Origin: Escherichia phage vB_EcoM_E9.1
Direction: 5' to 3' (one strand)
Length of the DNA stretch: 64,000 bases
Sequence record: PP886230
In this document: positions 1,726 to 15,184 of the stretch, one piece after another
How positions within the stretch are numbered: position 1 is the stretch's first letter
Layout: each line of letters starts with the position of its first letter
Position numbers and translations under genes: made by a program
Notes under the pieces: model-generated
Told to the model about the DNA's origin: nothing
The model's input: the letters and a program-made list of their open reading frames with translations, nothing else
Databases searched by the model: none

Positions 1726-2087
1726 TGGCAACTCAAATCACCAAAATTATTGCTAACCTGGTTAACTTCCGCGACGAGATGAAAGATCTTCCGGCGGCGA
1801 CGGTTAAAACTCACATTGACGCATACCGCGAACTGATTAAAATGCTGCCGCTTAAGCGTGAACAATACGCCGCTACCGTGATGCTTGATGCGATGATCCA
1901 TAAGATGATCGCCAGTGATTTGACGATGGTTTATCAGTATATGGGCGAAAATTTCGCGGTGTGTAGTAAGCCAGTACCAGGGATGGCAACAACTGAGGAA
2001 TTGCACGGCTTAAACTTAAAACAAGATGCATGGGATAATATGCCTCGTTTCCTGGTATGGGCTGACAGTGGCAAAATTTACAAATAA
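1726..2087 (+). CDS. hypothetical early protein
   Basis: ORF with promoter, leader hairpin and SD upstream; the track ORF from 1668 begins inside the promoter. Confidence 0.65.
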
Positions 2088-2101
2088 GTTTAATAAAGTA
2101 C

Positions 2102-2129
2102 TTGCAAACTATGTTTAATGGCGTATAAT
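2102..2129 (+). promoter_or_regulatory. sigma70-type promoter (TTGCAA-N16-TATAAT)
   Basis: Consensus hexamers followed by leader hairpin ggtggggaa..ttccccac. Confidence 0.6.
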
Positions 2130-2182
2130 GTTTTACATCAGGTGGGGAATAGTTCCCCACTATATAAGAGGATTAAAAAAAA

Positions 2183-2422
2183 ATGGCTAAATCAAAAATG
2201 TTCTTAGGTCACAAAAACAAAACTCATTGGAATGTAAGCCTGTGGATTAATAACGATGAGGGATTGTATCGGTTGGCCCTGGACTTTATTGCCGCCAATA
2301 CTAATCGCAATGATGCGGCCCGTCATATGATGTTATTTTTAGAACAGACTGGACAAGATAAAACACCGGACGGATTCAAATATAGCACTACTGCGATCCG
2401 TGCGGCGATGGTTGGAATGTAA
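2183..2422 (+). CDS. hypothetical early protein
   Basis: ORF 79 aa, SD aagagga upstream. Confidence 0.65.
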   Translation: MAKSKMFLGHKNKTHWNVSLWINNDEGLYRLALDFIAANTNRNDAARHMMLFLEQTGQDKTPDGFKYSTTAIRAAMVGM

Positions 2423-2510
2423 TAGAATAGAATTTATTTAAAGTACTATTGCACGGGGATAGTACTTTATAATAGTGTTTTATTCATACACCAACGATAA
2501 GGGCAACAGC

Positions 2511-2777
2511 ATGAATATTAAGTATTTTGCGACGCGTGAACAAGCTCGGATCGCCGCTCGCCAGGACGGGGCAACGTTTAAAGATATGGGCGTACAATCG
2601 GAACGTGGTAAACGTTGGGCCATTGTAAAGCGTAGTACCGCCAGATCATTACAGTACTGGTTAGCGGCCTTAAAAAGTCCCGATAGTGTATCGCGTCGAG
2701 TGGTAGAAATAAAGCTCGACCGAAAGGGCAACCGCGTGACCGTGTACCGTACTAAAAAGATTGCAGTACTTGAATAA
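2511..2777 (+). CDS. hypothetical early protein, paralogue of 14728-15123
   Basis: Shares FKDMG and DRKGNRVTVY with the later ORF; start moved to ATG after the promoter. Confidence 0.65.
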   Translation: MNIKYFATREQARIAARQDGATFKDMGVQSERGKRWAIVKRSTARSLQYWLAALKSPDSVSRRVVEIKLDRKGNRVTVYRTKKIAVLE

Positions 2778-2784
2778 AAAGTAC

Positions 2785-2812
2785 TTGCAAACTATGTTTA
2801 AAGGCGTATAAT
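2785..2812 (+). promoter_or_regulatory. sigma70-type promoter (TTGCAA-N16-TATAAT)
   Basis: Consensus hexamers plus leader hairpin. Confidence 0.6.
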
Positions 2813-2864
2813 GTTTTACATCGAGAGCGGGAACTCTTCCCGCCTATAACCTGGAGTAATAAAA

Positions 2865-3095
2865 ATGACTAATATGTATATGACTGAAGTTAAAACCGTA
2901 AAAGATACTACCACGAATAAAACTACTTACTTACAGCGGATCTGTGGTGTATGGCAACGTATCAGCAAATCAAAGTACTTTAAATTAACATCATATGCAA
3001 ACCGTTCTGATTCATTCAGTACTGAAATAAAAGGTAATAAAGTACACCAATACGGCACTTATTATTATTACAGCCTGGACGCGATTGCAGTATAA
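2865..3095 (+). CDS. hypothetical early protein
   Basis: ORF 76 aa; SD ggagt upstream. Confidence 0.6.
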   Translation: MTNMYMTEVKTVKDTTTNKTTYLQRICGVWQRISKSKYFKLTSYANRSDSFSTEIKGNKVHQYGTYYYYSLDAIAV

Positions 3096-3123
3096 GCAGT
3101 TTACAAATCTTTACAATTGCCGG

Positions 3124-3205
3124 TATTGACTTATTTTGTCAGTACTGGCATAATGTATTCATTGGCAGATAAGCCGTAGCCCATAGGGTGCGGGAGTGTA
3201 TCTAT
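3124..3205 (+). repeat. promoter-containing repeat element (REP copy, variant): TTGACT promoter followed by conserved core cccatagggtgc
   Basis: Matches the elements at 9337, 11025, 13372, 16361 and 18622. Confidence 0.55.
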
Positions 3206-3344
3206 AGAAAAATTAGTTTAGTATAGTTACAATTGTGCACCCGGTGGGTTAGCTGTTGTCATGGGGTATATTATGCCAGTACTTGATAATGCTGTCAATA
3301 CTTTTTTTTACTATCCAGTACAGAAAACTATTTTTAAAAAGTAC

Positions 3345-3372
3345 TTGCAAACTATGTTTAAAGGCGTATAAT
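3345..3372 (+). promoter_or_regulatory. sigma70-type promoter driving a short non-coding transcript
   Basis: TTGCAA-N16-TATAAT; no ORF before the next promoter. Confidence 0.55.
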
Positions 3373-3377
3373 GTTTT

Positions 3378-3460
3378 ACATCAGGACGGGGGAACGAAAT
3401 AAGTAACTTCCCGTTAAGTAGCCCAGGAGTAAGGCACACGAAAAACTCCCCTGATAAAAT
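3378..3460 (+). ncRNA. candidate small RNA (copy 1), about 85 nt between two promoters
   Basis: Conserved sequence with compensatory-looking stems (acgggg..ccccgt, atcagga..tcccctgat); second copy at 13532-13612; no ORF. Confidence 0.35.
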
Positions 3461-3463
3461 AGT

Positions 3464-3491
3464 TTGACAAATGTTTTTAAAAGCGTATAAT
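3464..3491 (+). promoter_or_regulatory. sigma70-type promoter (TTGACA-N16-TATAAT)
   Basis: Consensus hexamers. Confidence 0.6.
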
Positions 3492-3523
3492 ACTTACATC
3501 AACTACTGAATGAGGGTTACAAA

Positions 3524-4135
3524 ATGAAAACTATCACTACTACTACTTTCGTTATGGATTTTTCTGAATTGAACGCAGAACAAAAAACGTCAGCTATCGA
3601 ACTGGTTCGGGAACGTGAAAAAAACTCAAACGACAATTATTTTTCTGAAAGTGAAATTGAATACTATAAAGAAACAGTACTACCGGAATATGGCATTAAT
3701 GACGCTGAAATACAATTCAGTGGCTTTTGGTCCCAGGGTGACGGTGCATCAATCAGTACTGACCACGTTGACGCAGTGAAGTTTTTACGCAAGGTAAGAG
3801 CATTAACTAAGTATCGCTCAATCCGTCACTTGCTGAATGAAGATGATTTGGCGATGAGTGTAAAGCGTTCGCACTCCCACTACTCGCATGAGAATACTGT
3901 AAGCGGGTACATTGAATCGGCTTACACTGATTTAACCGCAAAACAAGAAACGTTAGTTAATGAGCTTGAGGAACTACTCACTGATACTATTCGTGAATTG
4001 TCCCGCAAGTTGTACCGTGATTTAGAGAATGCATATGAGGATCAATTCACTACTGAAAACATTACGGCACTGATTGAGGGTAACGAGTATCAATTCAATG
4101 TTATTGATGGCGTAGTGGAATCAATCGAATATTAA
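3524..4135 (+). CDS. hypothetical acidic protein (203 aa)
   Basis: ORF with SD gagggt; acidic composition. Confidence 0.7.
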   Translation: MKTITTTTFVMDFSELNAEQKTSAIELVREREKNSNDNYFSESEIEYYKETVLPEYGINDAEIQFSGFWSQGDGASISTDHVDAVKFLRKVRALTKYRSIRHLLNEDDLAMSVKRSHSHYSHENTVSGYIESAYTDLTAKQETLVNELEELLTDTIRELSRKLYRDLENAYEDQFTTENITALIEGNEYQFNVIDGVVESIEY

Positions 4136-4227
4136 TTTAAAAAGTACTTGCAAACTAAGTTTAAAAGCGTATAATACTTTATATCGAGAGCGGGAATAGT
4201 TCCCGCTACTAATGAGGAATACTACAA

Positions 4228-4392
4228 ATGAATACTTTTACCTTCGCTCAATTGAACGCCCTGGATGTATTGTCTGATGCTTTGCGGGATGCAACTGAAA
4301 GCGGTTTATTTGACAATGTTGACATTCACCCTGATGTAATTAATAATTTTTGTGATGCTATCGCAGAAGTACTGGAAGATCTAAAAAAATAA
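4228..4392 (+). CDS. hypothetical small protein (54 aa)
   Basis: ORF below the track cutoff with promoter, hairpin and SD gagga upstream. Confidence 0.5.
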   Translation: MNTFTFAQLNALDVLSDALRDATESGLFDNVDIHPDVINNFCDAIAEVLEDLKK

Positions 4393-4480
4393 TAGAAAGT
4401 ACTTGCAATTAGTTTTTAGTACTGTATAATGTTTTACATAGAGGGGAGAAATGGTTCTCCCTGGTAATGAGGAAAATACA

Positions 4481-4702
4481 ATGGCTAATATCACTACTCT
4501 TTCCCAACTGGAAGCACTGGTTAAATCTATGCGGGAACATGCCGACAATATCGGCGTAAAAGATCCAGCCGTTTGCTTCTGCGACGAATTGAATGATGAT
4601 ACCCTGGTAATAGCAGAAGTCCAGGACGTTTCTAACTATTCCTCGCGTTACACTGGCGGCGTAGCAAATAAAGGTGACTTCTGTTTATACCTTACCAAAT
4701 AA
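4481..4702 (+). CDS. hypothetical early protein
   Basis: ATG after the leader hairpin; the track ORF from 4451 starts inside the hairpin. Confidence 0.65.
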   Translation: MANITTLSQLEALVKSMREHADNIGVKDPAVCFCDELNDDTLVIAEVQDVSNYSSRYTGGVANKGDFCLYLTK

Positions 4703-4705
4703 CAA

Positions 4706-4737
4706 CGCGGGGAGATAATAACTCCCCGTTACTTTTT
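4706..4737 (+). terminator. rho-independent terminator
   Basis: GC hairpin cgcggggag..ctccccg then T-run. Confidence 0.6.
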
Positions 4738-4945
4738 CAGTACTGAATCATTTAATAGACGGATCTCGGCACCCGGTGGGTTAGTGACTGTTTCGTCTTG
4801 ATGTAGTAATTATGCCAGTACTGGATGCACTTGTCAACAACTATTTTTCAAATACTTTTTATTAAAATACTTGCTAATAGTTTTTAAACGCGTATAATGT
4901 TTTGCATAGGGGGAGCGGTTCCCCTGGTAACTAAGGAATAATAAA

Positions 4946-5182
4946 ATGCTTGAACAAATCAAATCAACGTCTGCGAATGTAACGGGAACGGTTGTACACT
5001 TTACTAGTGATGAATCGCGGGGCGTTCCCTATTGTGCTGTACATGTAAACACTGATGGCAACTACTGGTTTACGGTTTACGGATCATATTCATTTGGACG
5101 ACCAGGGCATCAAAAAATTCTGGATAAAGTACAGCCAACGGGTAAAAATATCACGGCTGAAATGTTTTATAAAAAATCATAA
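4946..5182 (+). CDS. hypothetical early protein
   Basis: ORF 78 aa with promoter, hairpin and SD. Confidence 0.65.
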   Translation: MLEQIKSTSANVTGTVVHFTSDESRGVPYCAVHVNTDGNYWFTVYGSYSFGRPGHQKILDKVQPTGKNITAEMFYKKS

Positions 5183-5267
5183 AGTACTTGATAATAGTTT
5201 TTAGTACTGTATAATATTTTACATCGCAAGGGGGTAATGGTTCCCCCTGGTAACTAAGGATAATCAA

Positions 5268-5567
5268 ATGAAAGTTGCATTCATCGCCCTGGCTTTATCT
5301 GTTTCCTCTTTTGCTGTTAATGCGTCGTTAGATGTAAGTAGTGAAAAATTCATTCAGTGCACTGTAGCAATGACAGATGAAAGTACTGGCGAGATTGTAT
5401 TAAAGGATCTGGAGATTCAGCCGGAAGCATTTAAAAACGGCCCGTTCCATGAAGAAGACGAAAACGGTAGCACAACAATTTATTATGATGCCAGTACTAA
5501 ACGCGGGTCGGTCACTGTTATGGATACTGAGAAAGTAACTCATACTGGCGTTATTAATTGCCGTTGA
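5268..5567 (+). CDS. putative secreted protein with N-terminal signal peptide
   Basis: N-terminus MKVAFIALALSVSSFAVNA is hydrophobic with an AxA-type site. Confidence 0.65.
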   Translation: MKVAFIALALSVSSFAVNASLDVSSEKFIQCTVAMTDESTGEIVLKDLEIQPEAFKNGPFHEEDENGSTTIYYDASTKRGSVTVMDTEKVTHTGVINCR

Positions 5568-5588
5568 TAGATACTACGGGGTAACATC

Positions 5589-5819
5589 ATGACTAAGCGA
5601 ATTGTTTTACTTAACGAAAGCAGTACTACACAACTACTTAACGCCGTGCATTATGATATTGAAACGAGCGTTAATCTTATCAGTACTGTAGTACTGTTGG
5701 ACACTGGAAAGGTCGCCAATGATAAAGCGATTGCAGGTATACTAACGGATCTTGAGCCTGGTAGCAGTGCACCAATAACGTTAAATGGTAAAGTGTTTAA
5801 TATTTTACTCACTGATTAA
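5589..5819 (+). CDS. hypothetical protein
   Basis: ORF 76 aa immediately downstream, SD present. Confidence 0.6.
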   Translation: MTKRIVLLNESSTTQLLNAVHYDIETSVNLISTVVLLDTGKVANDKAIAGILTDLEPGSSAPITLNGKVFNILLTD

Positions 5820-5825
5820 GTACAT

Positions 5826-5850
5826 AGCCCACCTGGTGGGCTTTTTTGTT
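5826..5850 (+). terminator. rho-independent terminator
   Basis: Hairpin agcccacctggtgggct then TTTTTT. Confidence 0.7.
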
Positions 5851-6050
5851 TTTGTAGTATCGTAGTACTGAGATACTTTGAAAATAGTTTTAAAAAAGTA
5901 GTTGACATTACCGCAGAAAAGCGTAGAATGTATTACATCAAGACGGGGAGCACTAAGTAGACCGCCAGTAAGTCGAACGAAAAACTGGACACGTCGAGAA
6001 AACTTTGATACACTAATAAACGTAAACTAAACTTTAATTGAGGATTTATA

Positions 6051-6533
6051 ATGGCTAATGTAAAATCATTCATCAAAGCACTGGTAGCAAATGAAACTAA
6101 CGTCGCGGCTGAGATCCTGGCTGAACTGGATAACGATACCATGAAAGCGGTACGCAATAATTTTAACATCGCGTACAGTACTGCGAAAGAACTACAAGCA
6201 AATAAAGCGGCAGAAATTGAAGCGGCAAAGGCGGCCCGTGAAGCAGAACTACAAGCAACAATCGAAAGTATCCAGGCGGCGGTGTCTGGATTGGATCTGG
6301 AAGTGGTTGTGGAAATGGCACATAAAGCCCTGGCGGTTAAGTATGGTGAAGATAAGCCAGAATCTAAACCCAAAAAATGGATTCAGGAACGCGTAGCGGT
6401 AGTACTGGACAACGGGGAAGAATATCTGATTCCGGTGCGTGGTAACTGTATTGCGGTAGTACTGGACGCTATCAAAGAAAGCGGTATGACTCGCGAGGAA
6501 TGGATCGAAGCTCATCGCAAAGTTGAAGCATAA
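6051..6533 (+). CDS. hypothetical Ala/Lys-rich protein (160 aa)
   Basis: ORF with TTGACA promoter near 5903 and a long leader; SD gagga. Confidence 0.7.
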   Translation: MANVKSFIKALVANETNVAAEILAELDNDTMKAVRNNFNIAYSTAKELQANKAAEIEAAKAAREAELQATIESIQAAVSGLDLEVVVEMAHKALAVKYGEDKPESKPKKWIQERVAVVLDNGEEYLIPVRGNCIAVVLDAIKESGMTREEWIEAHRKVEA

Positions 6534-6554
6534 CAATTAAAGTACTGAATCACT

Positions 6555-6582
6555 AGCCCACTGTATAAGTGGGCTTTTTTGT
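6555..6582 (+). terminator. rho-independent terminator
   Basis: Hairpin agcccactgtataagtgggct then TTTTTT. Confidence 0.7.
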
Positions 6583-6817
6583 GTTTATCGTTTACCAGGC
6601 CACCAGCACCGCCTAGAAACGATTCTAACGCATTAAACGGATTATCTGATGCATTGCCCTAGCTGGTGGCGTTAAGGCTGTAAGAACGCGATTGAGAGCG
6701 TTTAAAGTATTTTGCAAAAAGTAATAAAAAGTACTTGAACGATTAAGAGATTAGCGTATAATGTTTTACATCGAGAGGGGGAAACGGTTCTCCTTCCAAA
6801 TCAAAGGAATCAAAACA

Positions 6818-7045
6818 ATGGCTATTATCATTACTCGCGTATCTGGTACTACTGGCAACGAACAAGTAGTTGCAGTCATTACGAACAAGGCAGGTGCGGA
6901 ATTGCAAAATGCAATGAATACCTGGGCCGTTAATGAGTTCGGTCAGTGGGCAAGTGTAGCATACATTGAAACCTATCAAGTGCCGTCGATTAGTTTAACT
7001 GATTTGGGCGTTGAGCGTATCCTTTGCCTTGATGAATTAAATTAA
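6818..7045 (+). CDS. hypothetical early protein
   Basis: ATG after promoter and hairpin; the track ORF from 6761 starts in the promoter. Confidence 0.65.
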   Translation: MAIIITRVSGTTGNEQVVAVITNKAGAELQNAMNTWAVNEFGQWASVAYIETYQVPSISLTDLGVERILCLDELN

Positions 7046-7130
7046 AAAAGTACTTGCAAAGTAAATCGAATAAAGTATAATACATTACATCAAGGGGAGA
7101 AATGGTTCTCCCCACTACAAGGAAACTAAA

Positions 7131-7343
7131 ATGGCTATCATTACTAAAATCAAAGTTAGTAAATCACTGGTTAAACTTGAAGAAGTGAAAGAAGGTTATA
7201 AAGTATCTTGGTGCGGTATGTATCGGACGTTCGCAGATATAGATGATGCGATCAATTATTACACTGACACGGTTAAAAACTTTGTTCGTGCTGATGTGGT
7301 TATGGCAGTGGCAACATATAAAGCATCAAAAGAAAGTAAGTAA
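7131..7343 (+). CDS. hypothetical early protein, paralogue of 10287-10466
   Basis: N-terminus MAIITKIKV resembles MAIIAKTEI. Confidence 0.65.
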   Translation: MAIITKIKVSKSLVKLEEVKEGYKVSWCGMYRTFADIDDAINYYTDTVKNFVRADVVMAVATYKASKESK

Positions 7344-7424
7344 AAATATTATCACAGTACTATTGACATAGTTTGATAGTACTGGCATAATAACTTTTAT
7401 CAAGACAACTAAGAGGAAATTAAA

Positions 7425-7769
7425 ATGGCTAACATCAATACTATAGCAGCACAAAATATCAACCTGTCTTCTGTTGAAGTTGTACATATTGCCGCTCGGC
7501 GTTGGTTCCAGGCTTCATATGGTAACACTTATTTCTCTTTAAGTGTAGACGTAGAAATTGATGGTAATTTTATTGAAGTAGTAAACGTGCCGTTCCAATA
7601 TGGATACGGGGATCATTTTGACACTGTAGCAATGGAAGAATTTAGCAAGGTTATTAATATGGAAGGTAAAGAGTTTTTACGCGGTTCTTATCTTTCCCGT
7701 TTTTGCCGTGATAATAATATCACTGTTTATAGTTCTGTTAGTGATGTTAAACGCAAAAAAGATCTTTAA
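7425..7769 (+). CDS. hypothetical early protein, paralogue of 14309-14632
   Basis: Shared GNTY, YGYG and C-terminal DVKRKKD. Confidence 0.7.
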   Translation: MANINTIAAQNINLSSVEVVHIAARRWFQASYGNTYFSLSVDVEIDGNFIEVVNVPFQYGYGDHFDTVAMEEFSKVINMEGKEFLRGSYLSRFCRDNNITVYSSVSDVKRKKDL

Positions 7770-7849
7770 TTAGCTTTACTTTATGCAGATACTTTGATAT
7801 AGTGTCTGCATAGGGGAAAGAAATTAAATTAACTTAAGAGGATAGTATA

Positions 7850-8119
7850 ATGAAAAATATCAGTACTTTAATCGATGCAGGTACTCATGTTCGTCGGTCT
7901 ATGGTTGCAACCAGTACTACAAAACAAGTAGCGAGCGGTTATCTTGTATTTGTGCACGATGGTAAACTCCTGGAACGTTCAATCAATTTTGATGTTAAAA
8001 ACAATTGCCGTTTTATTATCTTTAAGCGTGAGCAATATAAAATTGATTTACCAGCAAAGCCCATTAGTGGGGCGTACAACGTGCAATCATTGTTTGAACG
8101 TCAACCATACACCTATTAA
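7850..8119 (+). CDS. hypothetical protein
   Basis: ORF 89 aa, SD aagagga. Confidence 0.6.
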   Translation: MKNISTLIDAGTHVRRSMVATSTTKQVASGYLVFVHDGKLLERSINFDVKNNCRFIIFKREQYKIDLPAKPISGAYNVQSLFERQPYTY

Positions 8120-8170
8120 TCAAAACATCGTTAGCGGTCGATTCAGGCCGCTTATATTGGGGATTATACC

Positions 8171-8443
8171 ATGAACGTTAATCAAGTACTGAATGAGATC
8201 GAAAGCATCATTAAACCGATGAAGCGTACTGATGCTATGTTAACACCGGAAGAATGCCGCCTTTATGAGCGTTACAGCGTCGAACAAGTCCAGGCAATGG
8301 CTATGGCTACCCCAGCCGTTAAACCGCCTGAGAATGCGTTACAGGACGTTACAGGGGATTATATCATCAATCCAGTACTAGGGAAGATGGCTGCAATCAC
8401 CGAAGATCAACAAGACTACTTAAGCCAGTACTTAAAAGGTTAA
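8171..8443 (+). CDS. hypothetical protein
   Basis: ORF 90 aa. Confidence 0.6.
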   Translation: MNVNQVLNEIESIIKPMKRTDAMLTPEECRLYERYSVEQVQAMAMATPAVKPPENALQDVTGDYIINPVLGKMAAITEDQQDYLSQYLKG

Positions 8444-8448
8444 TTAAT

Positions 8449-8658
8449 ATGCTTACTGTACAGGATAAGATCGACATCTTAAAGGTTAATATGTATGTGA
8501 TTGATGCAGAACCTGGTAAAGTATTTGCATACGATGATAGTACTGTAAGCGATTTCTACTATAGCCAGGCCGTGGGGGATCTTTCTGTACAGTCGGTTAT
8601 TGAAAACGTAGTTAATGCAGCGTATGAGCATTTACTTTCAAATAGTACTTGCAATTAG
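8449..8658 (+). CDS. hypothetical protein
   Basis: ORF 69 aa, closely follows previous gene. Confidence 0.55.
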   Translation: MLTVQDKIDILKVNMYVIDAEPGKVFAYDDSTVSDFYYSQAVGDLSVQSVIENVVNAAYEHLLSNSTCN

Positions 8659-8728
8659 TTTTTAAACGCGTATAATGTTTTACATCGAGAGCGGGAATAG
8701 TTCCCGCCTCACTTTTAAGGAATATGAA

Positions 8729-8875
8729 ATGAAAGCATCAAAAAAGAGTACTAACAAGAAAGCACGTTCAACCTTAGATGGGGTATTCCCTTTACGTTTC
8801 GTTGATGAAGTGGTTTCCTACCCGCCTGGCCTTACTCCTGAGATGGTAGAAAGTTTGCGTAAATCTAAAAAATAG
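8729..8875 (+). CDS. hypothetical small basic protein (48 aa)
   Basis: In-frame ATG with SD taagga 8 nt upstream; the track ORF from 8675 begins in the promoter. Confidence 0.55.
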   Translation: MKASKKSTNKKARSTLDGVFPLRFVDEVVSYPPGLTPEMVESLRKSKK

Positions 8876-8956
8876 TACTTGCAATTAGTTTTTAGTACTG
8901 TATAATGTTTTACATGAAGGGGAGAAATGATTCTCCCCAATAACAGGAGAAACAAA

Positions 8957-9109
8957 ATGAAACAATACAACGCTCGGTTTGATGTTACTATCGGTAACGG
9001 CAAAGGTCAATTCTCTTTCAGTACTCGCCGCAGTTATACAGAAAACTTCCTGCGTAATTGTGCATTGACCGCCGCTCAAATTAAACATTATTTTCAGGCT
9101 AAAAAATGA
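8957..9109 (+). CDS. hypothetical small protein (50 aa)
   Basis: ATG after SD aggaga; promoter and hairpin upstream. Confidence 0.55.
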   Translation: MKQYNARFDVTIGNGKGQFSFSTRRSYTENFLRNCALTAAQIKHYFQAKK

Positions 9110-9195
9110 GATCATTAGCTTATTACAGTTCGGCCCTGGTCGGTGCATTGATCGCGGCGTTGTTAGTAACCTATCTATTCTTTATGGTGATTTAA
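9106..9195 (+). CDS. putative single-pass membrane peptide (29 aa)
   Basis: ATGA overlap with upstream stop; hydrophobic sequence. Confidence 0.35.
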   Translation: MRSLAYYSSALVGALIAALLVTYLFFMVI

Positions 9196-9333
9196 ATGAA
9201 TCCTAACGGTATAATTTACAGTACTCCTAAAACGAAAGCAGACAAGGTAAACGCTAAAAAAGCGAAAGTAAAGGAGTACATCAAACAAGGAATGACACGA
9301 AAGGCGGCGATTCTAAAAGCTAAAAATAAATGA
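9196..9333 (+). CDS. hypothetical small Lys-rich protein (45 aa)
   Basis: ATG directly after previous stop (TAAATG). Confidence 0.35.
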   Translation: MNPNGIIYSTPKTKADKVNAKKAKVKEYIKQGMTRKAAILKAKNK

Positions 9334-9336
9334 AAA

Positions 9337-9432
9337 AGTGGTTGACTTCGGTCAGCCATTTTGCTATTATATATTCATTGAGAGATAGCTCACTAGCCCA
9401 CAGGGTGCAGGAGTGTATCTATTGTATAATGT
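9337..9432 (+). repeat. promoter-containing repeat element (REP copy)
   Basis: ttgacttcggtcag..ctattatat then ..ctagcccacagggtgcaggagtgtatc. Confidence 0.6.
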
Positions 9433-9553
9433 TTGAGTACTGAAAACTATTTTAAAGTATTTGATAAAAAGTACTTGCAAACTATCTCAATAAGCGTATA
9501 ATGTTTTACATCGCAAGGGGAAACGGTTTCCCCTAGTAATAAGGAAACGAATC

Positions 9554-9895
9554 ATGACTATCTCAATTGCTCAATCTAACTTTGAAAATGAAATCATCGC
9601 CCAGGCACTGCGTTTAAATGATGGTCGGGCCGAAATCAATTACGGTTTCAATTCAGGCGGTTGTGAAAAATATCAGTACTTTGTAACGGCTGATGGCGGT
9701 GTACTGGGCATCAATACAGTTATTGTAAACATACAGAAAATTAATTTCAATGATCCAGACGATAGCCAGTTTTACATCACTGGCGTAGACGTGAACTATG
9801 AGGATGACTCACTAACTGATGACCACACTGGCGAGAAGTTAGAAAGTGCATACGGTGAAGATGATTATCAGTCCGGTCCAGAAGATTTCGAATAA
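9554..9895 (+). CDS. hypothetical acidic protein
   Basis: ORF 113 aa with promoter, hairpin and SD. Confidence 0.7.
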   Translation: MTISIAQSNFENEIIAQALRLNDGRAEINYGFNSGGCEKYQYFVTADGGVLGINTVIVNIQKINFNDPDDSQFYITGVDVNYEDDSLTDDHTGEKLESAYGEDDYQSGPEDFE

Positions 9896-9991
9896 TATTA
9901 AAAAATAGTTTGACAATAGATTATAGTACTGTATAATAGTTTACATCAAGGGGAGAAAAACTTCTCCCCACTAACAGAGAGAGAAAACAAA

Positions 9992-10204
9992 ATGGCTAAT
10001 ATCCGGTCGAAATTAAAAAATGCAAAACAAGTTTTATTTTCAGATCATGAATACTTTAATAAAGATATTACAGGAGTTACAAGTATCAAGGAAGTAAAAG
10101 AAAAAACCGGCGTTTTGTGTGATGTGCGATTAGTTGGGACATTTGGGAATAACGTGCTATATCGCTGTGGTGATTACAATTTTACACTGACTATCATTAA
10201 CTAA
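9992..10204 (+). CDS. hypothetical protein
   Basis: ORF 70 aa with promoter and hairpin. Confidence 0.65.
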   Translation: MANIRSKLKNAKQVLFSDHEYFNKDITGVTSIKEVKEKTGVLCDVRLVGTFGNNVLYRCGDYNFTLTIIN

Positions 10205-10286
10205 AAATATTATCACAGTACTATTGACATAGTTTGATAGTACTGACATAATAACTTTTATCAACTACACTACTAAGGAATTAAAA

Positions 10287-10466
10287 ATGGCTATCATCGC
10301 AAAAACTGAAATCATCGGCCTGGATTCTATCATCATGACGTTTGAAGATCAAAAAGGTATGTATGTGGTTTCCTATGGTGATTATGTTCGGGAGTATGAA
10401 ACGGTAGACGAAGCCTTTGAAAGTTACATTCGCCAGGTGAATAAAGCATACGACGACTACCGCTAA
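10287..10466 (+). CDS. hypothetical small protein (59 aa), paralogue of 7131-7343
   Basis: ORF below track cutoff; SD aagga; promoter 10215-10250. Confidence 0.55.
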   Translation: MAIIAKTEIIGLDSIIMTFEDQKGMYVVSYGDYVREYETVDEAFESYIRQVNKAYDDYR

Positions 10467-10565
10467 AATATATTACCAGTACTATTAAAGATATTGACAA
10501 CGTTTGATAGTACTGTATAATAAGTTTTATAAACAGTAGTTAACTTAACCTAAGAGAGAAATAAA

Positions 10566-10709
10566 ATGATCGCACTGGATTCATTCATCGACGCAGTACT
10601 GGCAAAAACTGGCGAGGATCTGACCGCAGAACAATACGCGATGATCGAACAATGTCAACAGGACGGTAAATCGGTGAAAGATACTGTTAAGATTATCCGC
10701 AAGATGTAA
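10566..10709 (+). CDS. hypothetical small protein (47 aa)
   Basis: ORF with SD agagaga and promoter upstream. Confidence 0.45.
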   Translation: MIALDSFIDAVLAKTGEDLTAEQYAMIEQCQQDGKSVKDTVKIIRKM

Positions 10710-10714
10710 GATTA

Positions 10715-10745
10715 TAGCCCACTGGTTAACGCTGGTGGGCTTTAA
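10715..10745 (+). terminator. terminator-like hairpin containing a Chi octamer
   Basis: agcccac..gtgggct stem; GCTGGTGG at 10732-10739; weak T-run. Confidence 0.45.
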
Positions 10746-10814
10746 TTCATTACCCTATACAATGCCAGTACTAAACCGTTTATCTCGTTAGAATGCGTTA
10801 CAGGACGTTTACCA

Positions 10815-11012
10815 ATGATTAGCATGAAATCAGTACAAAAACAAATAGAAACATTATCAAAAATTAAACGTAAACAGTACTCCTTAGAATATACAATCAA
10901 TGGTAACTATCATCTAATGAAAGAAAATAATTTTATAGTCATTGATGAATCATTGCAAATCATTAGTATAGTACTGAAAGCATTAATCAATGACAGAAAA
11001 AAATTAAAATAA
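10815..11012 (+). CDS. hypothetical protein
   Basis: ORF 65 aa. Confidence 0.5.
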   Translation: MISMKSVQKQIETLSKIKRKQYSLEYTINGNYHLMKENNFIVIDESLQIISIVLKALINDRKKLK

Positions 11013-11024
11013 ACTATTGACAAT

Positions 11025-11112
11025 ATCATCCAGCACTGGCATAATACTTACACCAAGACGAGAACGTCACTAACCCATAGGGTGCACAAATGTAACTGTA
11101 TAATATTGATCA
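11025..11112 (+). repeat. promoter-containing repeat element (REP copy, variant)
   Basis: TTGACA..cataat promoter then ..ctaacccatagggtgcacaaatgtaac. Confidence 0.5.
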
Positions 11113-11343
11113 AAAAATGATCTGATCAATACTTGATCAATTTGCGTAAAGTAGTATAATTCTATGCAGTTGGTTAGACGAAAGGTTATGATTAGTAGTG
11201 CAAGTGTATAAAAATTTTCATGGTGTATCGTTCCGCACATATGGGGATGAATATGTGGTATCATGTGGATTGGAAAAAGTAAGAACAAGTAATATTATTG
11301 TCGCATTACAGTACTATAGTATTTTTATAATGAGGTTAAAATA

Positions 11344-11601
11344 ATGGCTGTAGGATTCGCGAAAGATGGGGCCGAGCAAGACGAGATTAACGCAGTGATT
11401 CAGGCCGCCGTTAACCACGCTAGAAAGCAAATTAACGCACAAATAGAATCACTGATACATTGCCTCGACTGCGGCGATATAATCCCTGAGAAACGACGCC
11501 AGGCCGTTAAGGGATGTAAGTACTGCATAACTTGCCAGGAGGATCATGATAGTACTTTTAAACGTCCCCCGCGTAATTGTTGGCATAGATCTATGAGATA
11601 A
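11344..11601 (+). CDS. TraR/DksA-family C4 zinc-finger protein
   Basis: CLDCGDIIPEKRRQA..CKYCITC matches the zf-DksA/TraR pattern. Confidence 0.75.
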   Translation: MAVGFAKDGAEQDEINAVIQAAVNHARKQINAQIESLIHCLDCGDIIPEKRRQAVKGCKYCITCQEDHDSTFKRPPRNCWHRSMR

Positions 11602-11664
11602 AAAGTATTGACAGTACTGAAAGATAGTGTATAATGTTTTATATCTTAACTGAGGATAGTAATC

Positions 11665-12021
11665 ATGGGAATACAACATATCACGCGTACTACTGACAAT
11701 GGCGAGATCACTGGCTATCAAGTACAGGGCAAAGTAGCACAATTGCAGTACTGGTTTGTGAAACGTGGAATCATTGCACCGGATCTTGATTATGACCGTG
11801 TAGCGTTTATTGATTCTCTTTATGTTGATCCTGATAGTCGGGGCAATGGTGAAGGTAACGAATTAATGAATGCCTTTATTGATGCCGCCGATGATTCAGA
11901 TTGTATCATTTTAGAATGCGATACGGGAGAAGATAACGCCTTTAATCTTAAAGAATGGTACGAAGGTTTCGGATTCGAGGTACTGATCGATAGTGAATAT
12001 CCTATCATGATTTTATCATAG
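11665..12021 (+). CDS. putative GNAT-like acetyltransferase (small)
   Basis: VDPDSRGNGEGNELM resembles GNAT motif A and EWYEGFGFEV motif B; assignment tentative. Confidence 0.5.
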   Translation: MGIQHITRTTDNGEITGYQVQGKVAQLQYWFVKRGIIAPDLDYDRVAFIDSLYVDPDSRGNGEGNELMNAFIDAADDSDCIILECDTGEDNAFNLKEWYEGFGFEVLIDSEYPIMILS

Positions 12022-12099
12022 TACTTGCATTTAGTTTTCAGTACTGTTATAGTACTTGCATCAAGGGGAAACATCTTCCCCTACTAAGAGGAAATAAAA

Positions 12100-12288
12100 A
12101 TGGAAAACTTATCAAGTATTTTAGTACAAGATGATTTCGGTAATCCTGGAAGTGCTATCATTGTTCGGGGTAATAAAGCAACGTTTGTTATTGCTGGTGG
12201 ACCAGTACAGCGTAGCATTAAAAATAATGCTGTTACCATTAATAATGTACGCTATCGCTTAGATAAAGAATTGATTCATAAACTGTAA
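12100..12288 (+). CDS. hypothetical protein
   Basis: ORF 62 aa with promoter and hairpin. Confidence 0.6.
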   Translation: MENLSSILVQDDFGNPGSAIIVRGNKATFVIAGGPVQRSIKNNAVTINNVRYRLDKELIHKL

Positions 12289-12315
12289 TATTAATTTAAT
12301 AGAGGATAACAATAA

Positions 12316-12639
12316 ATGTACATTCATACTACTATCACAAAGGAAGTCCGTTGCCAGTTCGAAAGTATTCCGGGCGTATGTTTCATCACTGGTACGTTTT
12401 CCCCTGGTGATCGTGATAATCCAGTACTGTTACAATTACGCCATCCATCATGGGATAAAGCATTTGATCTACCGTTGAATGAATTCGCAACTACTGCTGA
12501 AAAGTACATTAAAAATATTCGCGAGAATGATCGACTATTCATTAATGCTTTTAGTGATTCCGCGTTAAGCGAGATCCACGGCGTATTGGTTGCAATCATG
12601 GAATCAATGCAGAAAACTAAATTCAAACAAGGTGAATAA
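12316..12639 (+). CDS. hypothetical protein
   Basis: ORF 107 aa; SD gagga. Confidence 0.65.
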   Translation: MYIHTTITKEVRCQFESIPGVCFITGTFSPGDRDNPVLLQLRHPSWDKAFDLPLNEFATTAEKYIKNIRENDRLFINAFSDSALSEIHGVLVAIMESMQKTKFKQGE

Positions 12640-12722
12640 AAACTATTGACAATGCAACCCAGTACTGTATAATAGTTTACATGAAGGGGAGAAATGATTC
12701 TCCCCACTGAGAGGAAAGAAAA

Positions 12723-12935
12723 ATGCAAGGTCAACTAATCGTTCGTAAATGGTCTGATACTAACGAAAAACCGTGGGATGTACAATACATCGGACCGGAT
12801 GGGGTATCACGTTATCAGCCTGGCGTAACGCATAGTACTGAGCAATATGCCGCCGCTCACCGCGAACGCCTGTTAGAATCCATGAAACAGGGATTCTGTG
12901 AAAAATTCATTCAAGATCATTGGCTGAAAGATTAA
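12723..12935 (+). CDS. hypothetical protein
   Basis: ORF 70 aa with promoter and hairpin. Confidence 0.65.
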   Translation: MQGQLIVRKWSDTNEKPWDVQYIGPDGVSRYQPGVTHSTEQYAAAHRERLLESMKQGFCEKFIQDHWLKD

Positions 12936-12952
12936 TAGAAGGAGTACAGCTT

Positions 12953-13045
12953 ATGCAAATGAATCCGATGATTATTGTTTTAGCTGTACTTATGATCATT
13001 CATGCAATTGTAGAAGTATTAACGCAATCAGGAGTAATAAAATGA
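12953..13045 (+). CDS. putative small membrane peptide (30 aa)
   Basis: SD aaggagt; hydrophobic; first of three overlapping micro-ORFs. Confidence 0.4.
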   Translation: MQMNPMIIVLAVLMIIHAIVEVLTQSGVIK

Positions 13046-13215
13046 TTCAAGTAGAATTATCAGTACTGAAAGATCTGTTTTATCGGTTAGGTACTACTGG
13101 AGAGTATCCTAAAAGTGATACCGCAAAACTTTTTGTATCACTCGACTTATGGCAACGCGAACAATTAGTAATGTCCTGGCGTAAAGGTAAAGCAGATCGC
13201 GAGGTGAAAGCATGA
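13042..13215 (+). CDS. hypothetical small protein (57 aa)
   Basis: ATGA overlap with upstream stop. Confidence 0.4.
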   Translation: MIQVELSVLKDLFYRLGTTGEYPKSDTAKLFVSLDLWQREQLVMSWRKGKADREVKA

Positions 13216-13361
13216 AAGAATTCTTATTCGAAGTAGTGTTTCAAGGTGTCGGTAGTAACCAACTGATTCGCTCAAGTGGTTACAATGTTAACCAGGCATG
13301 GAATAACATTAAACAAATGTACCCGAACGCTATCACCTATCGCAACCCGAAAGAAGTTTAA
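13212..13361 (+). CDS. hypothetical small protein (49 aa)
   Basis: ATGA overlap with upstream stop. Confidence 0.4.
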   Translation: MKEFLFEVVFQGVGSNQLIRSSGYNVNQAWNNIKQMYPNAITYRNPKEV

Positions 13362-13371
13362 AAATATTTGA

Positions 13372-13452
13372 AAAAGGGATTGACTCCGGTCAGTCCCTTT
13401 GCTATTATATACGCATAGAAACAATTCAGCCCACCGGGTGCATAAATGTATC
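13372..13452 (+). repeat. promoter-containing repeat element (REP copy)
   Basis: gggattgactccggtcagtccc..ctattatat then ..cagcccaccgggtgcataaatgtatc; Chi GCTGGTGG at 13451-13458. Confidence 0.6.
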
Positions 13453-13531
13453 TATTATATGCTGGTGGCTAGTACTGAAAACTATTTTTAAAAAGTACTT
13501 GCATTGTATTTAGAATCAAGTATAATGTTTT

Positions 13532-13612
13532 ACATCAGGACGGGGAACGAAACAAGTAACCCCGTTAAGTAGTCCAGGAGTAAGACATACGAAAACCTCC
13601 CCTGATAAAATA
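13532..13612 (+). ncRNA. candidate small RNA (copy 2)
   Basis: Near-identical to 3378-3460; substitutions look compatible with the proposed stems; sits between two promoters. Confidence 0.35.
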
Positions 13613-13674
13613 GTTTGACAATAGAAATTAAACGAGTATAATACTTACATCAACCACTGATAAGGAAACATAAA

Positions 13675-13950
13675 ATGCGGATTCTACTGACAGCTAACGA
13701 AATCGAACAAGTACTGACTACTAACCTGGAAGACTGGAAACGTGAAGCAGATATCCAGGCGGTTCAATGGTTAAATGATAAGTTAACGCCGGATGACTTA
13801 AGCAAGATTGTAGATCCTCAATTCTACGAAGATATCCACGACACCGCGTTAAGCGTCGAGGATGTACTAGATAAGCACTTTATTGATACTGATTTGCAGG
13901 TTTACGGTCGTAAAAACTTTATCACTATTCACGACATTTACAATAATTAA
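13675..13950 (+). CDS. hypothetical protein
   Basis: ORF 91 aa. Confidence 0.65.
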   Translation: MRILLTANEIEQVLTTNLEDWKREADIQAVQWLNDKLTPDDLSKIVDPQFYEDIHDTALSVEDVLDKHFIDTDLQVYGRKNFITIHDIYNN

Positions 13951-14037
13951 GTATTGACAAAGTATCTTAGTACTGTATAATAGTTTACATCAAGCGAGGG
14001 GAATGGTTCCCCTCCTAACTAAAAGAGAGAAATAAAA

Positions 14038-14220
14038 ATGGCTAAGTGCACTATCTGCAAGAAAGAAATAGTATTAGTTCCAAGTGCCCGTGAACGTGCC
14101 GCTCGGTTCGGTGGCAAAGCGTCAGACTATACAAAAATGTTTACTACCCATACAGCTTGCCAGGTAGCAAAACGTTCACAAGAAAGCGTAGAATTAATGC
14201 GTAAACTTTCCAAAAAATAA
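14038..14220 (+). CDS. hypothetical basic protein
   Basis: ORF 60 aa with promoter and hairpin. Confidence 0.6.
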   Translation: MAKCTICKKEIVLVPSARERAARFGGKASDYTKMFTTHTACQVAKRSQESVELMRKLSKK

Positions 14221-14308
14221 GTATTGACAAAGTATCTTAGTACTGTATAATAGTTTACATCAAGTGAGGGGAAACGGTTCCCCTCCTAACAAAGAGAGAG
14301 AAATAAAA

Positions 14309-14632
14309 ATGGCTATGATCCTTGCCCAGAAAGTAGAATTGAAAATTGTAACCTCCTTTGACATTAACGTTAATCGGTGGACTGATTCACACGGCAATAC
14401 TTACCACTCTTGCTACGTGTCTGCGTTAATTGGCGACCGCTGGGAAGACCTGGGACACGAAACCTTTACATACGGTTACGGTACACAAGGCGAATACACG
14501 GGCTTGGAGATCATTAAAGAAACCGTTATAGGTTTCAACCCGAAAGAAAAAGTTATTCACCGCATCGAGGAAGAGATCAACAAAGAAATAACAGTTCGCT
14601 ACCACGATGTAAAACGTAAGAAAGACATGTAA
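14309..14632 (+). CDS. hypothetical protein, paralogue of 7425-7769
   Basis: ATG after leader hairpin; shared DVKRKKD C-terminus. Confidence 0.7.
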   Translation: MAMILAQKVELKIVTSFDINVNRWTDSHGNTYHSCYVSALIGDRWEDLGHETFTYGYGTQGEYTGLEIIKETVIGFNPKEKVIHRIEEEINKEITVRYHDVKRKKDM

Positions 14633-14727
14633 TAGAATCCATTTAAAGTACTATTTGACATTGCCCAGATAGTACTTTATAATAGACTCTAACTTGTAGT
14701 ACTAACTTAACTAATAGGATGTATACC

Positions 14728-15123
14728 ATGATTACTAAATTCTACGCTACCCGTGAAGCTGCCCGTATTGTTGCACGCGAGGAAGGCGAAACATTTAAAG
14801 ACATGGGCAAAGATGCACCGAAAGGTCAACGCTGGGCCGTACAGTTCAAAGAGATCTCTGATATTGTGAATTCACCGGAGCCAGTACTAACAGCAGCAGA
14901 ACTAAAACGAGCGGATTTACTGGCGTCAATACTTGATGCACAAGATGAGTTTATCGCTGATTCTGATATCAAAGTACAGACAAACCACACCGCTTGGACT
15001 CACGCGGATCACCTGGCAAACCTTAAGCGTCCAAGTGAACTGATTCGCAACCAGAAAGAGATCCGACACGACCGTAAGGGTAATCGTGTAACAGTATACA
15101 GTAAACGCCGCCAGGTTATCTAA
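14728..15123 (+). CDS. hypothetical protein, paralogue of 2511-2777
   Basis: SD agga 8 nt upstream of ATG 14728; shared FKDMG and DRKGNRVTVY. Confidence 0.7.
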   Translation: MITKFYATREAARIVAREEGETFKDMGKDAPKGQRWAVQFKEISDIVNSPEPVLTAAELKRADLLASILDAQDEFIADSDIKVQTNHTAWTHADHLANLKRPSELIRNQKEIRHDRKGNRVTVYSKRRQVI

Positions 15124-15145
15124 TAACTTGCAGTACTAACAACAC

Positions 15146-15171: not shown

Positions 15172-15184
15172 TAGGACAAACAAA

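What the first reader, a model, noticed from the sequence alone, without database searches (positions are those of the whole stretch)
3378..13612. Two copies of a conserved ~85-nt non-coding unit, each between two promoters (3378-3460 and 13532-13612): candidate small RNA
Each unit follows a consensus promoter, contains no ORF, and precedes the promoter of the next gene. The two copies are about 90 percent identical and the differences appear compatible with the proposed stems (acgggg/ccccgt; caggacgg../..cccctgat).
Basis: inference. Interest (0 to 1): 0.55.

Follow-up and report, generated by a model that had tools for sequence, protein, structure and literature searches.

The report
Conserved structured leader RNA in coliphage early transcripts
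The two ~80-base units are real copies (a third was missed) of a non-coding, folded RNA module made at the start of early phage transcripts, and the same module sits unannotated between promoters A1 and A2 of phage T7 and in hundreds of its relatives, so an undescribed RNA element can now be tested in a model phage.

Summary
Units at 3380-3458 and 13534-13609 are 90% identical. Each starts about 7 nt after the -10 of a consensus sigma-70 promoter and ends just before the -35 of a second promoter. Neither has an ORF or a terminator. The window is the early, terminal-repeat region of an Asteriusvirus (PBECO4/121Q-like jumbo coliphage).

A covariance model found a third, diverged copy at 5937-6009. 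This one is a true 5' UTR of a 160-aa gene.

The conserved core is UUAAGUAG, four nt, then a 5-bp hairpin with the loop AAGNCNNAYGAAAA. The hairpin stem occurs in five compensatory versions: GGAGU/ACUCC, GGUGU/ACACC, CCAGU/ACUGG, CUUGU/ACAAG and CCUGU/ACAGG.

The same core occurs in Vequintavirinae, in Justusliebigvirus and in 485 T7-like records. In T7 it lies at +39 to +96 of the A1 transcript. There a pseudoknot shows compensatory changes in five of six pairs.

No Rfam family, paper or annotation covers it. It is a real plus-strand structured RNA, but not a stand-alone terminated sRNA gene. The most likely role is a leader domain that engages a conserved host factor, possibly RNA polymerase. 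That mechanism is inferred, not shown.

The parts
3345..3372 (+). Promoter P1-A (TTGCAA-N16-TATAAT), T7-A1-like early promoter that drives unit A
3380..3458 (+). Unit A. P1 helix 3380-3385 with 3450-3455 (AUCAGG/CCUGAU). P2 hairpin 3386-3414 (ACGGGGG...UUCCCGU). Junction J 3415-3425 (UAAGUAGCCCA). P3 hairpin 3426-3449 (GGAGU, 14-nt loop AAGGCACACGAAAA, ACUCC). AAA tail 3456-3458.
3464..3491 (+). Promoter P2-A (TTGACA-N16-TATAAT, 12/12). Its own 32-nt leader carries no large hairpin.
3524..4135 (+). Gene downstream of unit A (203 aa, phrog_5162, function unknown)
5902..5929 (+). Promoter of unit C (TTGACA-N16-TAGAAT)
5937..6009 (+). 5' AUCAAGACGGGGAGCAC. J 5954-5964 (UAAGUAGACCG). P3 5965-5988 (CCAGU, loop AAGUCGAACGAAAA, ACUGG). 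Possible closing pairs GACG 5942-5945 with CGUC 5992-5995, and AUCAAG 5937-5942 with UUUGAU 6004-6009. The P2 hairpin is lost and no strong second promoter follows.
6051..6533 (+). Gene whose 5' UTR contains unit C (160 aa, phrog_27871, function unknown). Terminator-like sites flank the cassette at 5826-5842 and 6555-6575.
13499..13526 (+). Promoter P1-B (TTGCAT-N16-TATAAT)
13534..13609 (+). Unit B. P1 helix 13534-13539 with 13601-13606. P2 hairpin 13540-13565. J 13566-13576. P3 13577-13600 (GGAG...CUCC, loop AAGACAUACGAAAA).
13615..13642 (+). Promoter P2-B (TTGACA-N16-TATAAT, 12/12)
13675..13950 (+). Gene downstream of unit B (91 aa, phrog_14947, function unknown). The same gene follows the unit in Justusliebigvirus muut.

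Best explanation
The units are copies of a conserved, plus-strand, structured non-coding RNA module. Host sigma-70 RNA polymerase makes it at the very start of phage early transcripts.

Its invariant core is a single-stranded UUAAGUAG box, four nt, and a 5-bp hairpin (P3) whose 14-17-nt loop reads (A)UAAGNCNNANGAANAA. A G/C hairpin (P2) lies just upstream. The segment right after P3 pairs back to an upstream segment and closes the domain. In Asteriusvirus copies A and B that partner is the 5' end (P1, a three-way junction). In T7-like phages it is the P2 loop (an H-type pseudoknot).

The module is a cassette that moves between unrelated coliphages, independently of the gene that follows it. 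It has no terminator, so it is the 5' leader of longer early transcripts and not a stand-alone sRNA gene.

Most likely mechanism (inferred, not shown): the domain folds co-transcriptionally and presents its two conserved UAAG-containing single strands to a conserved enterobacterial factor. I favour a cis action on the transcribing host RNA polymerase or its elongation factors, by analogy with HK022 put: anti-pausing, anti-backtracking or resistance to termination. The paired 5' end would also protect the transcript.
For: Shown:
- Three copies in the window, and nothing else above noise.
- Each copy starts about 7 nt after a -10 hexamer. Three unrelated promoter sequences sit in front of it in different phages.
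- Homology in A7_1 and LTH01 stops exactly at the unit's borders.
- P3 covaries. Three of five pairs are compensatory, with 98.6% of cells paired against 74.9% in shuffles (0/500).
- In 35 distinct T7-like sequences the pseudoknot has compensatory changes in five of six pairs, in six sequence versions. Overall 90.3% of cells pair against 73.3% in shuffles (0/500), and slid controls give 16-35%.
- G-C to G.U changes occur in P2 and at the P3 base (11 of 35). They fit only the plus-strand RNA.
- The T7 A1 leader, +1 to +104, folds with z = -3.3.
- The T7-type element is in 485 T7-like records. The A/B type is in 44 Asteriusvirus, Justusliebigvirus and Vequintavirinae records.
- The same genes occur with and without the unit in different phages.
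- No terminator follows any copy (sequences).

Inferred:
- A host partner, because the loop sequences are conserved across podoviruses and jumbo myoviruses of Enterobacterales.
- The put analogy. putL and putR are about 70 nt long, lie downstream of early promoters and act in cis on RNA polymerase (PMC9378689).
Against: - No transcript, processing or binding data were available.
- P1 of copies A and B never varies, so it has no covariation support.
- Single-sequence folding of A and B is only modestly better than shuffles (z -1.5 and -2.5). Copy C is not better than shuffles.
- In the full P1-to-ATG transcripts the minimum-energy fold replaces P1 with other long-range pairings. P2 and P3 persist.
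- There is no sequence or architectural similarity to put or nut, and no boxA in the window's early region.
- In T7 only A1-initiated polymerases would carry the element.
- Strongly conserved loops fit a trans-acting decoy or sponge equally well.
- In some Kayfunavirus genomes no promoter follows closely, so any link to traversing the next promoter is not general.
Confidence: 0.45

Rival explanations
1. Trans-acting small RNA or decoy. The module is cut out of the leader, for example in the AU-rich stretch after P1 or at R0.3 in T7. It then accumulates as an abundant early RNA that titrates or mimics a ligand of a host protein such as an RNase, Hfq, S1 or a defence sensor.
For: - Loop and junction sequences are conserved across very different phages.
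- The unit is gained and lost independently of the downstream gene.
- There are three copies inside the ~22-kb direct terminal repeat, so up to six per genome.
- The 5' end is paired.
- From my own knowledge: T7 A-promoter leaders are released by RNase III at R0.3.
Against: - No terminator and no defined 3' end in any copy.
- Copy C is plainly a 5' UTR.
- No complementarity of about 16 nt or more to E. coli genomes.
- No processing data.
Confidence: 0.3
2. A 5'-end stabiliser only. The fold simply protects P1-derived early mRNAs from 5'-end-dependent decay, like the shorter 5' hairpins on the other ~30 early leaders.
For: - Nearly all early promoters in 1-19.3 kb are followed by a GGGG...CCCC 5' hairpin.
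- P2 of the unit is that same hairpin with a larger loop. Compare the leader at 2130-2160, ACAUCAGGUGGGGAAUAGUUCCCCAC.
- P1 pairs the extreme 5' end.
Against: - It does not explain the invariant single-stranded UUAAGUAG and AAGNCNNAYGAAAA sequences, or the pseudoknot, kept across families.
- In T7 the element starts at +39, behind a separate 5' hairpin.
Confidence: 0.12
3. DNA-level element: an upstream (UP-like or activator) region of the following promoter. In T7 the A-rich loop and the 3' arm lie at -49 to -40 of A2.
For: Most copies lie directly upstream of a strong promoter. In T7 the pseudoknot 3' strand is the A2 -35 hexamer.
Against: - Pseudoknot and hairpin covariation, and the G.U pairs, need a single plus strand.
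- Copy C and some Kayfunavirus copies have no adjacent promoter.
- The distance to the -35 varies from 2 to more than 20 nt.
Confidence: 0.05
4. Decayed gene cassette or tiny ORF: a promoter, hairpin and Shine-Dalgarno sequence (AGGAG) left after loss of an ORF, or a 9-12-codon peptide.
For: - AGGAG followed 8 nt later by ACG. One EJP2 copy has ATG there, giving MKNTPDKRIKKY.
- The layout resembles the standard leaders.
Against: - ACG or AAG is not a usable start codon.
- muut has a frameshifting extra C, and the C-termini differ among copies.
- In copy C, LTH01 and the T7-like phages the 'SD' is CCAGU, CUUGU or CCUGU, changed compensatorily with its partner.
- The element is retained in more than 500 genomes.
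Confidence: 0.03

Closest known systems
Phage T7 A1-to-A2 inter-promoter leader (genome 536-594)
   Same: It is the same element. It has the UAAGUAG box, the P3 hairpin with loop AUAAGUCGCACGAAAAA and a preceding CCGG hairpin, and it lies downstream of a strong sigma-70 early promoter and upstream of the next one. A model built only from non-T7 copies detects it (31.5 bits, E 3e-5; the Pkp-1 type scores 49.8 bits).
   Different: In T7 it starts at +39, behind a separate 5' hairpin. It closes by a pseudoknot (P2 loop GUCAA with UUGAC of the A2 -35) and not by a 5'-end helix. There is one copy per genome. The RefSeq record has no feature there, and I found no paper that assigns it a structure or function.
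HK022 put RNAs (putL, putR)
   Same: They are about 70 nt long, lie downstream of early sigma-70 promoters, occur in several similar copies per genome, have no ORF and act as part of the nascent transcript (PMC9378689).
   Different: There is no sequence similarity. put has two adjacent stem-loops with a triplex, while this element is a three-way junction or pseudoknot. Antitermination by this element is untested.
PeSL cassettes of T4-type phages (Arbiol et al. 2010, PMC2839356)
   Same: Repeated strong sigma-70 early promoters lie next to GGGG...CCCC stem-loops and flank small ORFans. These cassettes are proposed vehicles of modular shuffling. The window's first 19 kb is built this way, and the unit moves between the same genes.
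   Different: A PeSL ends in a Shine-Dalgarno sequence and the start codon of an ORF. Here the payload is an RNA fold with an extra conserved J-P3 domain, and the phage families are different.
Lambda-type nut sites (boxA plus boxB)
   Same: A linear box plus a short hairpin with a conserved A-rich loop, placed promoter-proximal in early transcripts.
   Different: There is no boxA consensus. The loop is 14-17 nt, not a pentaloop. No N-like protein was identified.

Membership tests
Any Rfam 15 family | Covariance-model score at or above the family's gathering threshold | tested here: not met
   No hits at gathering thresholds over the whole window. Only chance-level hits with the E-value setting on 3300-3560 and on the T7, Pkp-1 and LTH01 loci.
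tRNA / tmRNA | Cloverleaf or tmRNA recognised by ARAGORN | tested here: not met
   0 genes in the window.
Stand-alone bacterial sRNA gene | Own promoter | tested here: met
   Consensus promoters lie immediately upstream of each copy.
Stand-alone bacterial sRNA gene | Own intrinsic terminator or a defined 3' end | tested here: not met
   No terminator-like site lies between a unit and the next gene. None is seen in other phages.
T7 A1-A2 leader element (family defined in this report) | UUAAGUAG box, 4 nt, then a 5-bp hairpin with loop (A)UAAGNCNNANGAANAA | tested here: met
   Model R2 scores 60.0, 59.2 and 51.9 bits for copies B, A and C, and 28-50 bits for T7-like copies.
T7 A1-A2 leader element (family defined in this report) | The segment just 3' of P3 pairs with an upstream segment to close the domain | tested here: met
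   T7-like phages use a pseudoknot with covariation. Copies A and B use P1, predicted in every variant but invariant. Copy C and LTH01 use GACG(G)/(C)CGUC, seen by eye only.
HK022 put | RNA of about 70 nt just downstream of an early sigma-70 promoter, in more than one copy per genome | tested here: met
HK022 put | Two adjacent stem-loops (stem I with a triplex) and similarity to the put sequence | tested here: not met
   The architecture is a three-way junction or an H-type pseudoknot. No direct alignment to put was made.
HK022 put | Suppresses downstream terminators and pauses through the RNA polymerase beta' zinc-binding domain | not testable with these tools
   Needs in vitro transcription or genetics.
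Lambda nut | boxA consensus (CGCUCUUA / GCUCUUUAACAA) | tested here: not met
   No match in the window's early region. Only two chance-level one-mismatch hits, at 55 and 60 kb.
PeSL cassette | Strong sigma-70-like early promoter with an adjacent GGGG...CCCC stem-loop | tested here: met
   definition from PMC2839356
PeSL cassette | Ends in a Shine-Dalgarno sequence and the start codon of the ORF it drives | tested here: not met
   Copies A and B are followed by another promoter, not an ORF. Copy C has 60 extra structured nt before its Shine-Dalgarno sequence.
Small ORF / leader peptide | Usable start codon and a conserved reading frame | tested here: not met
   ACG or AAG sits at the 'start'. 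muut has a frameshift and the C-termini vary.

The most novel reading that the evidence does not exclude
This is a horizontally mobile, non-coding 'early gene': a roughly 60-80-nt pseudoknot or three-way-junction aptamer shared by T7-like podoviruses, rV5-like and phi92-like myoviruses and jumbo Asteriusviruses. It binds a conserved enterobacterial protein as soon as infection starts. The partner could be RNA polymerase (a second, put-independent class of RNA that modifies polymerase), or a nuclease or defence factor that the RNA neutralises. Under this reading the element has gone unnoticed in T7's most-used promoter region.
Probability: 0.3. Interest if true: 0.85.

Novelty: new variant of a known kind. 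Interest (0 to 1): 0.62.

Why it matters
The element lies in the first RNA made by several unrelated groups of enterobacterial phages. One of them is T7, whose A1 promoter and leader are a standard template in transcription biochemistry. A covariation-supported fold there, with invariant loops, implies an unrecognised interaction at the moment of host take-over. Because it is in T7, it can be tested directly with existing mutagenesis, in vitro transcription and probing tools. The finding also shows that the cassette system of repeated promoters that shuffles small early genes between coliphages can carry RNA payloads as well as ORFs.

Tried and rejected
- **Rfam.** No family at gathering or E-value thresholds.
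- **tRNA/tmRNA.** None.
- **Mini-ORF or decayed cassette.** Rejected: no usable start codon, a frameshift in muut, compensatory changes in the 'SD', and no paralogous full-length ORF that starts the same way.
- **Minus-strand RNA.** It folds no better than shuffles, and the G.U pairs would become A.C.
- **Host origin or antisense target.** No blastn match in 5,426 E. coli genomes. The GTDB scans gave 0 hits and then 7 hits in non-enteric MAGs, close to the ~13 I estimate by chance.
- **First IMG/VR patterns, built on the A/B copies.** They found only 121Q plus one chance coding hit, L006.
- **Metagenome scan.** Two Asteriusvirus relatives and three unrelated chance hits.
- **Resemblances checked by eye only.** An E. 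coli type I-E CRISPR repeat mimic, the hammerhead core, CsrA GGA sites (lost in EJP2 copy 3 and in copy C) and an 8-nt identity to 16S rRNA (chance level). All were dismissed.
- **boxA/nut.** Absent.
- **Pairing of the P2 loop with the 3' tail in copies A and B.** No T7-style pseudoknot was found by eye.
- **Downstream proteins.** No Pfam domain, and only PHROGs of unknown function.
- **Conservation relative to flanks among close relatives.** Uninformative, because copies A and B exchange sequence within genomes.
- **CMSTMSU copies.** Excluded because the record is riddled with indels.
- **Literature.** Searches found nothing on the element.


Full report
**What the window is.** The first 1 kb around the finding is 98-99% identical to PBECO4, 121Q, G17 and other Asteriusvirus jumbo coliphages. 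In records that annotate it, the region lies inside the direct terminal repeat. Positions 1-19.3 kb hold about 35 near-identical sigma-70 promoters. The usual layout is AAAGTACTTGCA/TTGACA-N16-TATAAT, then GTTTTACAT, then a GGGG...CCCC 5' hairpin, a Shine-Dalgarno sequence and a small plus-strand ORF. This matches the PeSL cassette architecture described for T4-type phages (PMC2839356).

**Check of the observation.**
- The two units are at 3380-3458 and 13534-13609 and are 89.9% identical.
- Each begins about 7 nt after a -10 hexamer and ends in CCCCUGAUAAA, a few nt before a perfect TTGACA-N16-TATAAT.
- There is no ATG/GTG/TTG ORF and no terminator-like site.
- The core pattern is unique to these two sites, with 0 expected by chance.
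- All 20 distinct variants collected from relatives give the same minimum-energy fold: P1 AUCAGG/CCUGAU, P2 ACGGGG/CCCCGU with a variable 12-16-nt loop, an 11-nt junction UAAGUAGYCCA, and P3 GGAG(U)/(A)CUCC with a 14-nt loop.
- In this close set 97% of cells pair, but only one pair is compensatory. Five G-C to G.U changes in P2 fit only the plus strand.

**A third copy.**
- A covariance model of the unit, run without filters, found a diverged copy at 5937-6009 (core 5953-5988). It is conserved in 121Q, PBECO4, UE-S1 and a metagenome contig.
- It keeps AUCAAGACGGGG, UAAGUAG and the loop AAGUCGAACGAAAA. P3 is CCAGU/ACUGG. The 3' arm of P2 is gone.
- No strong second promoter follows. In 121Q even the weak promoter-like stretch is deleted. 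The element is therefore the 5' UTR of a 160-aa gene.
- With EJP2's A-locus copy (GGUGU/ACACC), three of the five P3 pairs show compensatory changes.

**Distribution and mobility.**
- blastn found the A/B type in 44 records: all Asteriusvirus records hit (two A/B-type copies each, three in EJP2), three Justusliebigvirus and four Vequintavirinae.
- In those other families the flanking promoters differ, and homology stops at the unit's borders.
- The genes that follow belong to at least seven families. Several of the same genes occur elsewhere behind an ordinary promoter without the unit. The unit therefore behaves as an independent cassette.
- Within Asteriusvirus genomes, copies A and B exchange sequence.

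**The link to T7.**
- Vequintavirinae LTH01, which blastn with the unit did not find, carries a further variant at the A73 locus, with P3 CUUGU/ACAAG.
- Weak blastn hits to T7-like phages turned out to be real. Pkp-1 has UUAAGUAG-UCAG-CCUGU-AAGACAUACGAAAA-ACAGG between two sigma-70 promoters.
- T7 itself has CCGGGGUCAACCGG-AUAAGUAG-ACAG-CCUG-AUAAGUCGCACGAAAAA-CAGG-UA-UUGACA at genome 536-594. That is +39 to +96 of the A1 transcript, and it ends in the -35 hexamer of A2.
- A pattern anchored only in the box and the loop hit 51 IMG/VR contigs, almost all 37-45 kb. blastn with the T7 element hit 485 GenBank records of Escherichia, Klebsiella, Salmonella, Yersinia, Enterobacter, Citrobacter, Shigella and Serratia phages. 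Each has one copy, and none is annotated apart from spurious ORFs.
- Model R2, built without any T7-like sequence, scores T7-like copies at 28-50 bits.

**Structure across the family.**
- Over 29 distinct cores P3 is 98.6% paired. Three of five pairs carry compensatory changes, and 0 of 500 shuffles reach the observed values.
- In 35 distinct T7-like sequences, aligned almost without gaps, the P2 loop is complementary to the 5-6 nt that begin two nt after P3. Six sequence versions occur: GUCAA/UUGAC, GUCAUC/GAUGAC, GAUUAG/CUAAUC, GUCGGU/ACCGAC, GUCAC/GUGAC and UCAAC/GUUGA.
- Five of six pseudoknot pairs are compensatory. Overall pairing is 90.3% against 73.3% in shuffles (0/500), and 16-35% when partners are slid.
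- G.U occurs at the base of P3 in 11 of 35 sequences.
- The search pattern fixed only one stem nucleotide, so this result is not circular.
- A pseudoknot with G.U pairs requires a single plus strand, that is, RNA.
- The T7 A1 leader, +1 to +104, folds with z = -3.3 into a 5' hairpin, P2 and P3.
- The window's copies differ in how the domain is closed. A and B use the 5' end (P1). Copy C and LTH01 seem to use GACG(G)/(C)CGUC. These closures are invariant, so they are only predicted.

**What it is not.**
- Not an Rfam family.
- Not a tRNA.
- Not a peptide gene.
- Not derived from E. coli or from any GTDB genome.
- Not a nut site.
- Not a terminated sRNA gene.
- I found no paper that describes it. 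The T7 RefSeq record has no feature there. To my knowledge the A1-A2 interval of T7 has no assigned function.

**Mechanism.**
- Shown: a conserved, folded, plus-strand leader RNA module with invariant single-stranded boxes. It is always promoter-proximal in host-polymerase early transcripts, never has a terminator, and moves independently of genes.
- Inferred: the boxes, which are shared by podoviruses and jumbo myoviruses, point to a host partner.
- I favour a cis, co-transcriptional action on RNA polymerase or its elongation factors (put-like; PMC9378689), with 5'-end protection as a side benefit. Confidence is about 0.45.
- A processed trans-acting decoy is nearly as likely (about 0.3).
- The stabiliser-only, DNA-level and remnant readings fit the covariation and the conserved loops poorly.
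- Full-length folds of the P1 transcripts show competing pairings with the downstream 5' UTR. These are not conserved between loci, so I treat them as incidental.

**Verdict.** The finding is real and more general than reported. The 'small RNA' label is only partly right. The element is an undescribed variant of the phage early-leader RNA kind, and it is directly testable in T7.

Noticed in passing
window 1-19300: About 35 near-identical early promoters are each followed by ACAUCGAGAG..GGGGAAnnnUUCCCC 5' hairpins. The promoter's initial transcribed sequence and hairpin resemble T7 A1 +1 to +30 (AUCGAGAGGGACACGGCGAAUAGCC..CCC). T7 A1-like promoter-leader cassettes therefore seem to be shared by Asteriusvirus, Vequintavirinae and Justusliebigvirus, and they behave like PeSLs.
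   Followed up: partly
window 9322-9456, 13360-13460, 16351-16485, 18611-18711: A conserved 100-135-nt intergenic element occurs in four copies (repeat families D10 and D17). It has a 12-bp hairpin, AAAGGGATTGACTCCGGTCAGTCCCTTT, that contains a TTGACT...TATTAT promoter-like pair, followed by GCCCACCGGGTGC. It always lies just upstream of an early promoter, including the one for unit B. It may be a terminator or insulator, or another RNA.
   Followed up: no
window 366-1667: A perfect TTGACA-N16-TATAAT promoter at 366-393 heads about 1.2 kb with no ATG-start plus-strand ORF of 40 aa or more. 121Q also has a ~2-kb unannotated gap upstream of its early gene block (L007 8388-10355).
   Followed up: no
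L031 247-342 (T7 genome 626-721): The T7 A2 leader also folds strongly (z -3.7). The fold is a domain closed by GUCAACCG pairing with CGGUUGAC, whose 3' strand is the -35 of A3. This parallels the A1-A2 pseudoknot. Covariation was not tested.
   Followed up: partly
L029 ~930-945, L030 ~1035-1050, L031 ~434-446: T7-like early leaders carry an rrn-type boxA (GCTCTTTAACAA) downstream of the last A promoter. No such box occurs in the Asteriusvirus early region.
   Followed up: partly
window 3160-3190 and 11070-11095: A shared intergenic motif, CCCATAGGGTGC, lies downstream of promoter-like sites at 3126-3154 and 11017-11045 in stretches without ORFs. It may be related to the D10 element.
   Followed up: no
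window 20900-25000 and 36100-38200: There are arrays of diverged tandem paralogues. One has 11 copies of a 50-nt motif ending in GGAACAAACTATCAA, spaced about 215 nt apart. The other has 5 copies of a ~450-nt repeat. Both are presumably small gene families.
   Followed up: no
L008 (Escherichia phage CMSTMSU, MH494197): The record is riddled with single-base indels relative to all relatives, in the units and the promoters, so it is unreliable for comparative work.
   Followed up: no
window 3418-3424 with 3512-3518: In the full promoter-to-ATG transcript of copy A, the junction GUAGCCC can pair with GGGUUAC at the Shine-Dalgarno region of gene A. In copy B the 5' AUCAG can pair with CUGAU next to the Shine-Dalgarno region of gene B. 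The pairings are not conserved between the two loci.
   Followed up: partly
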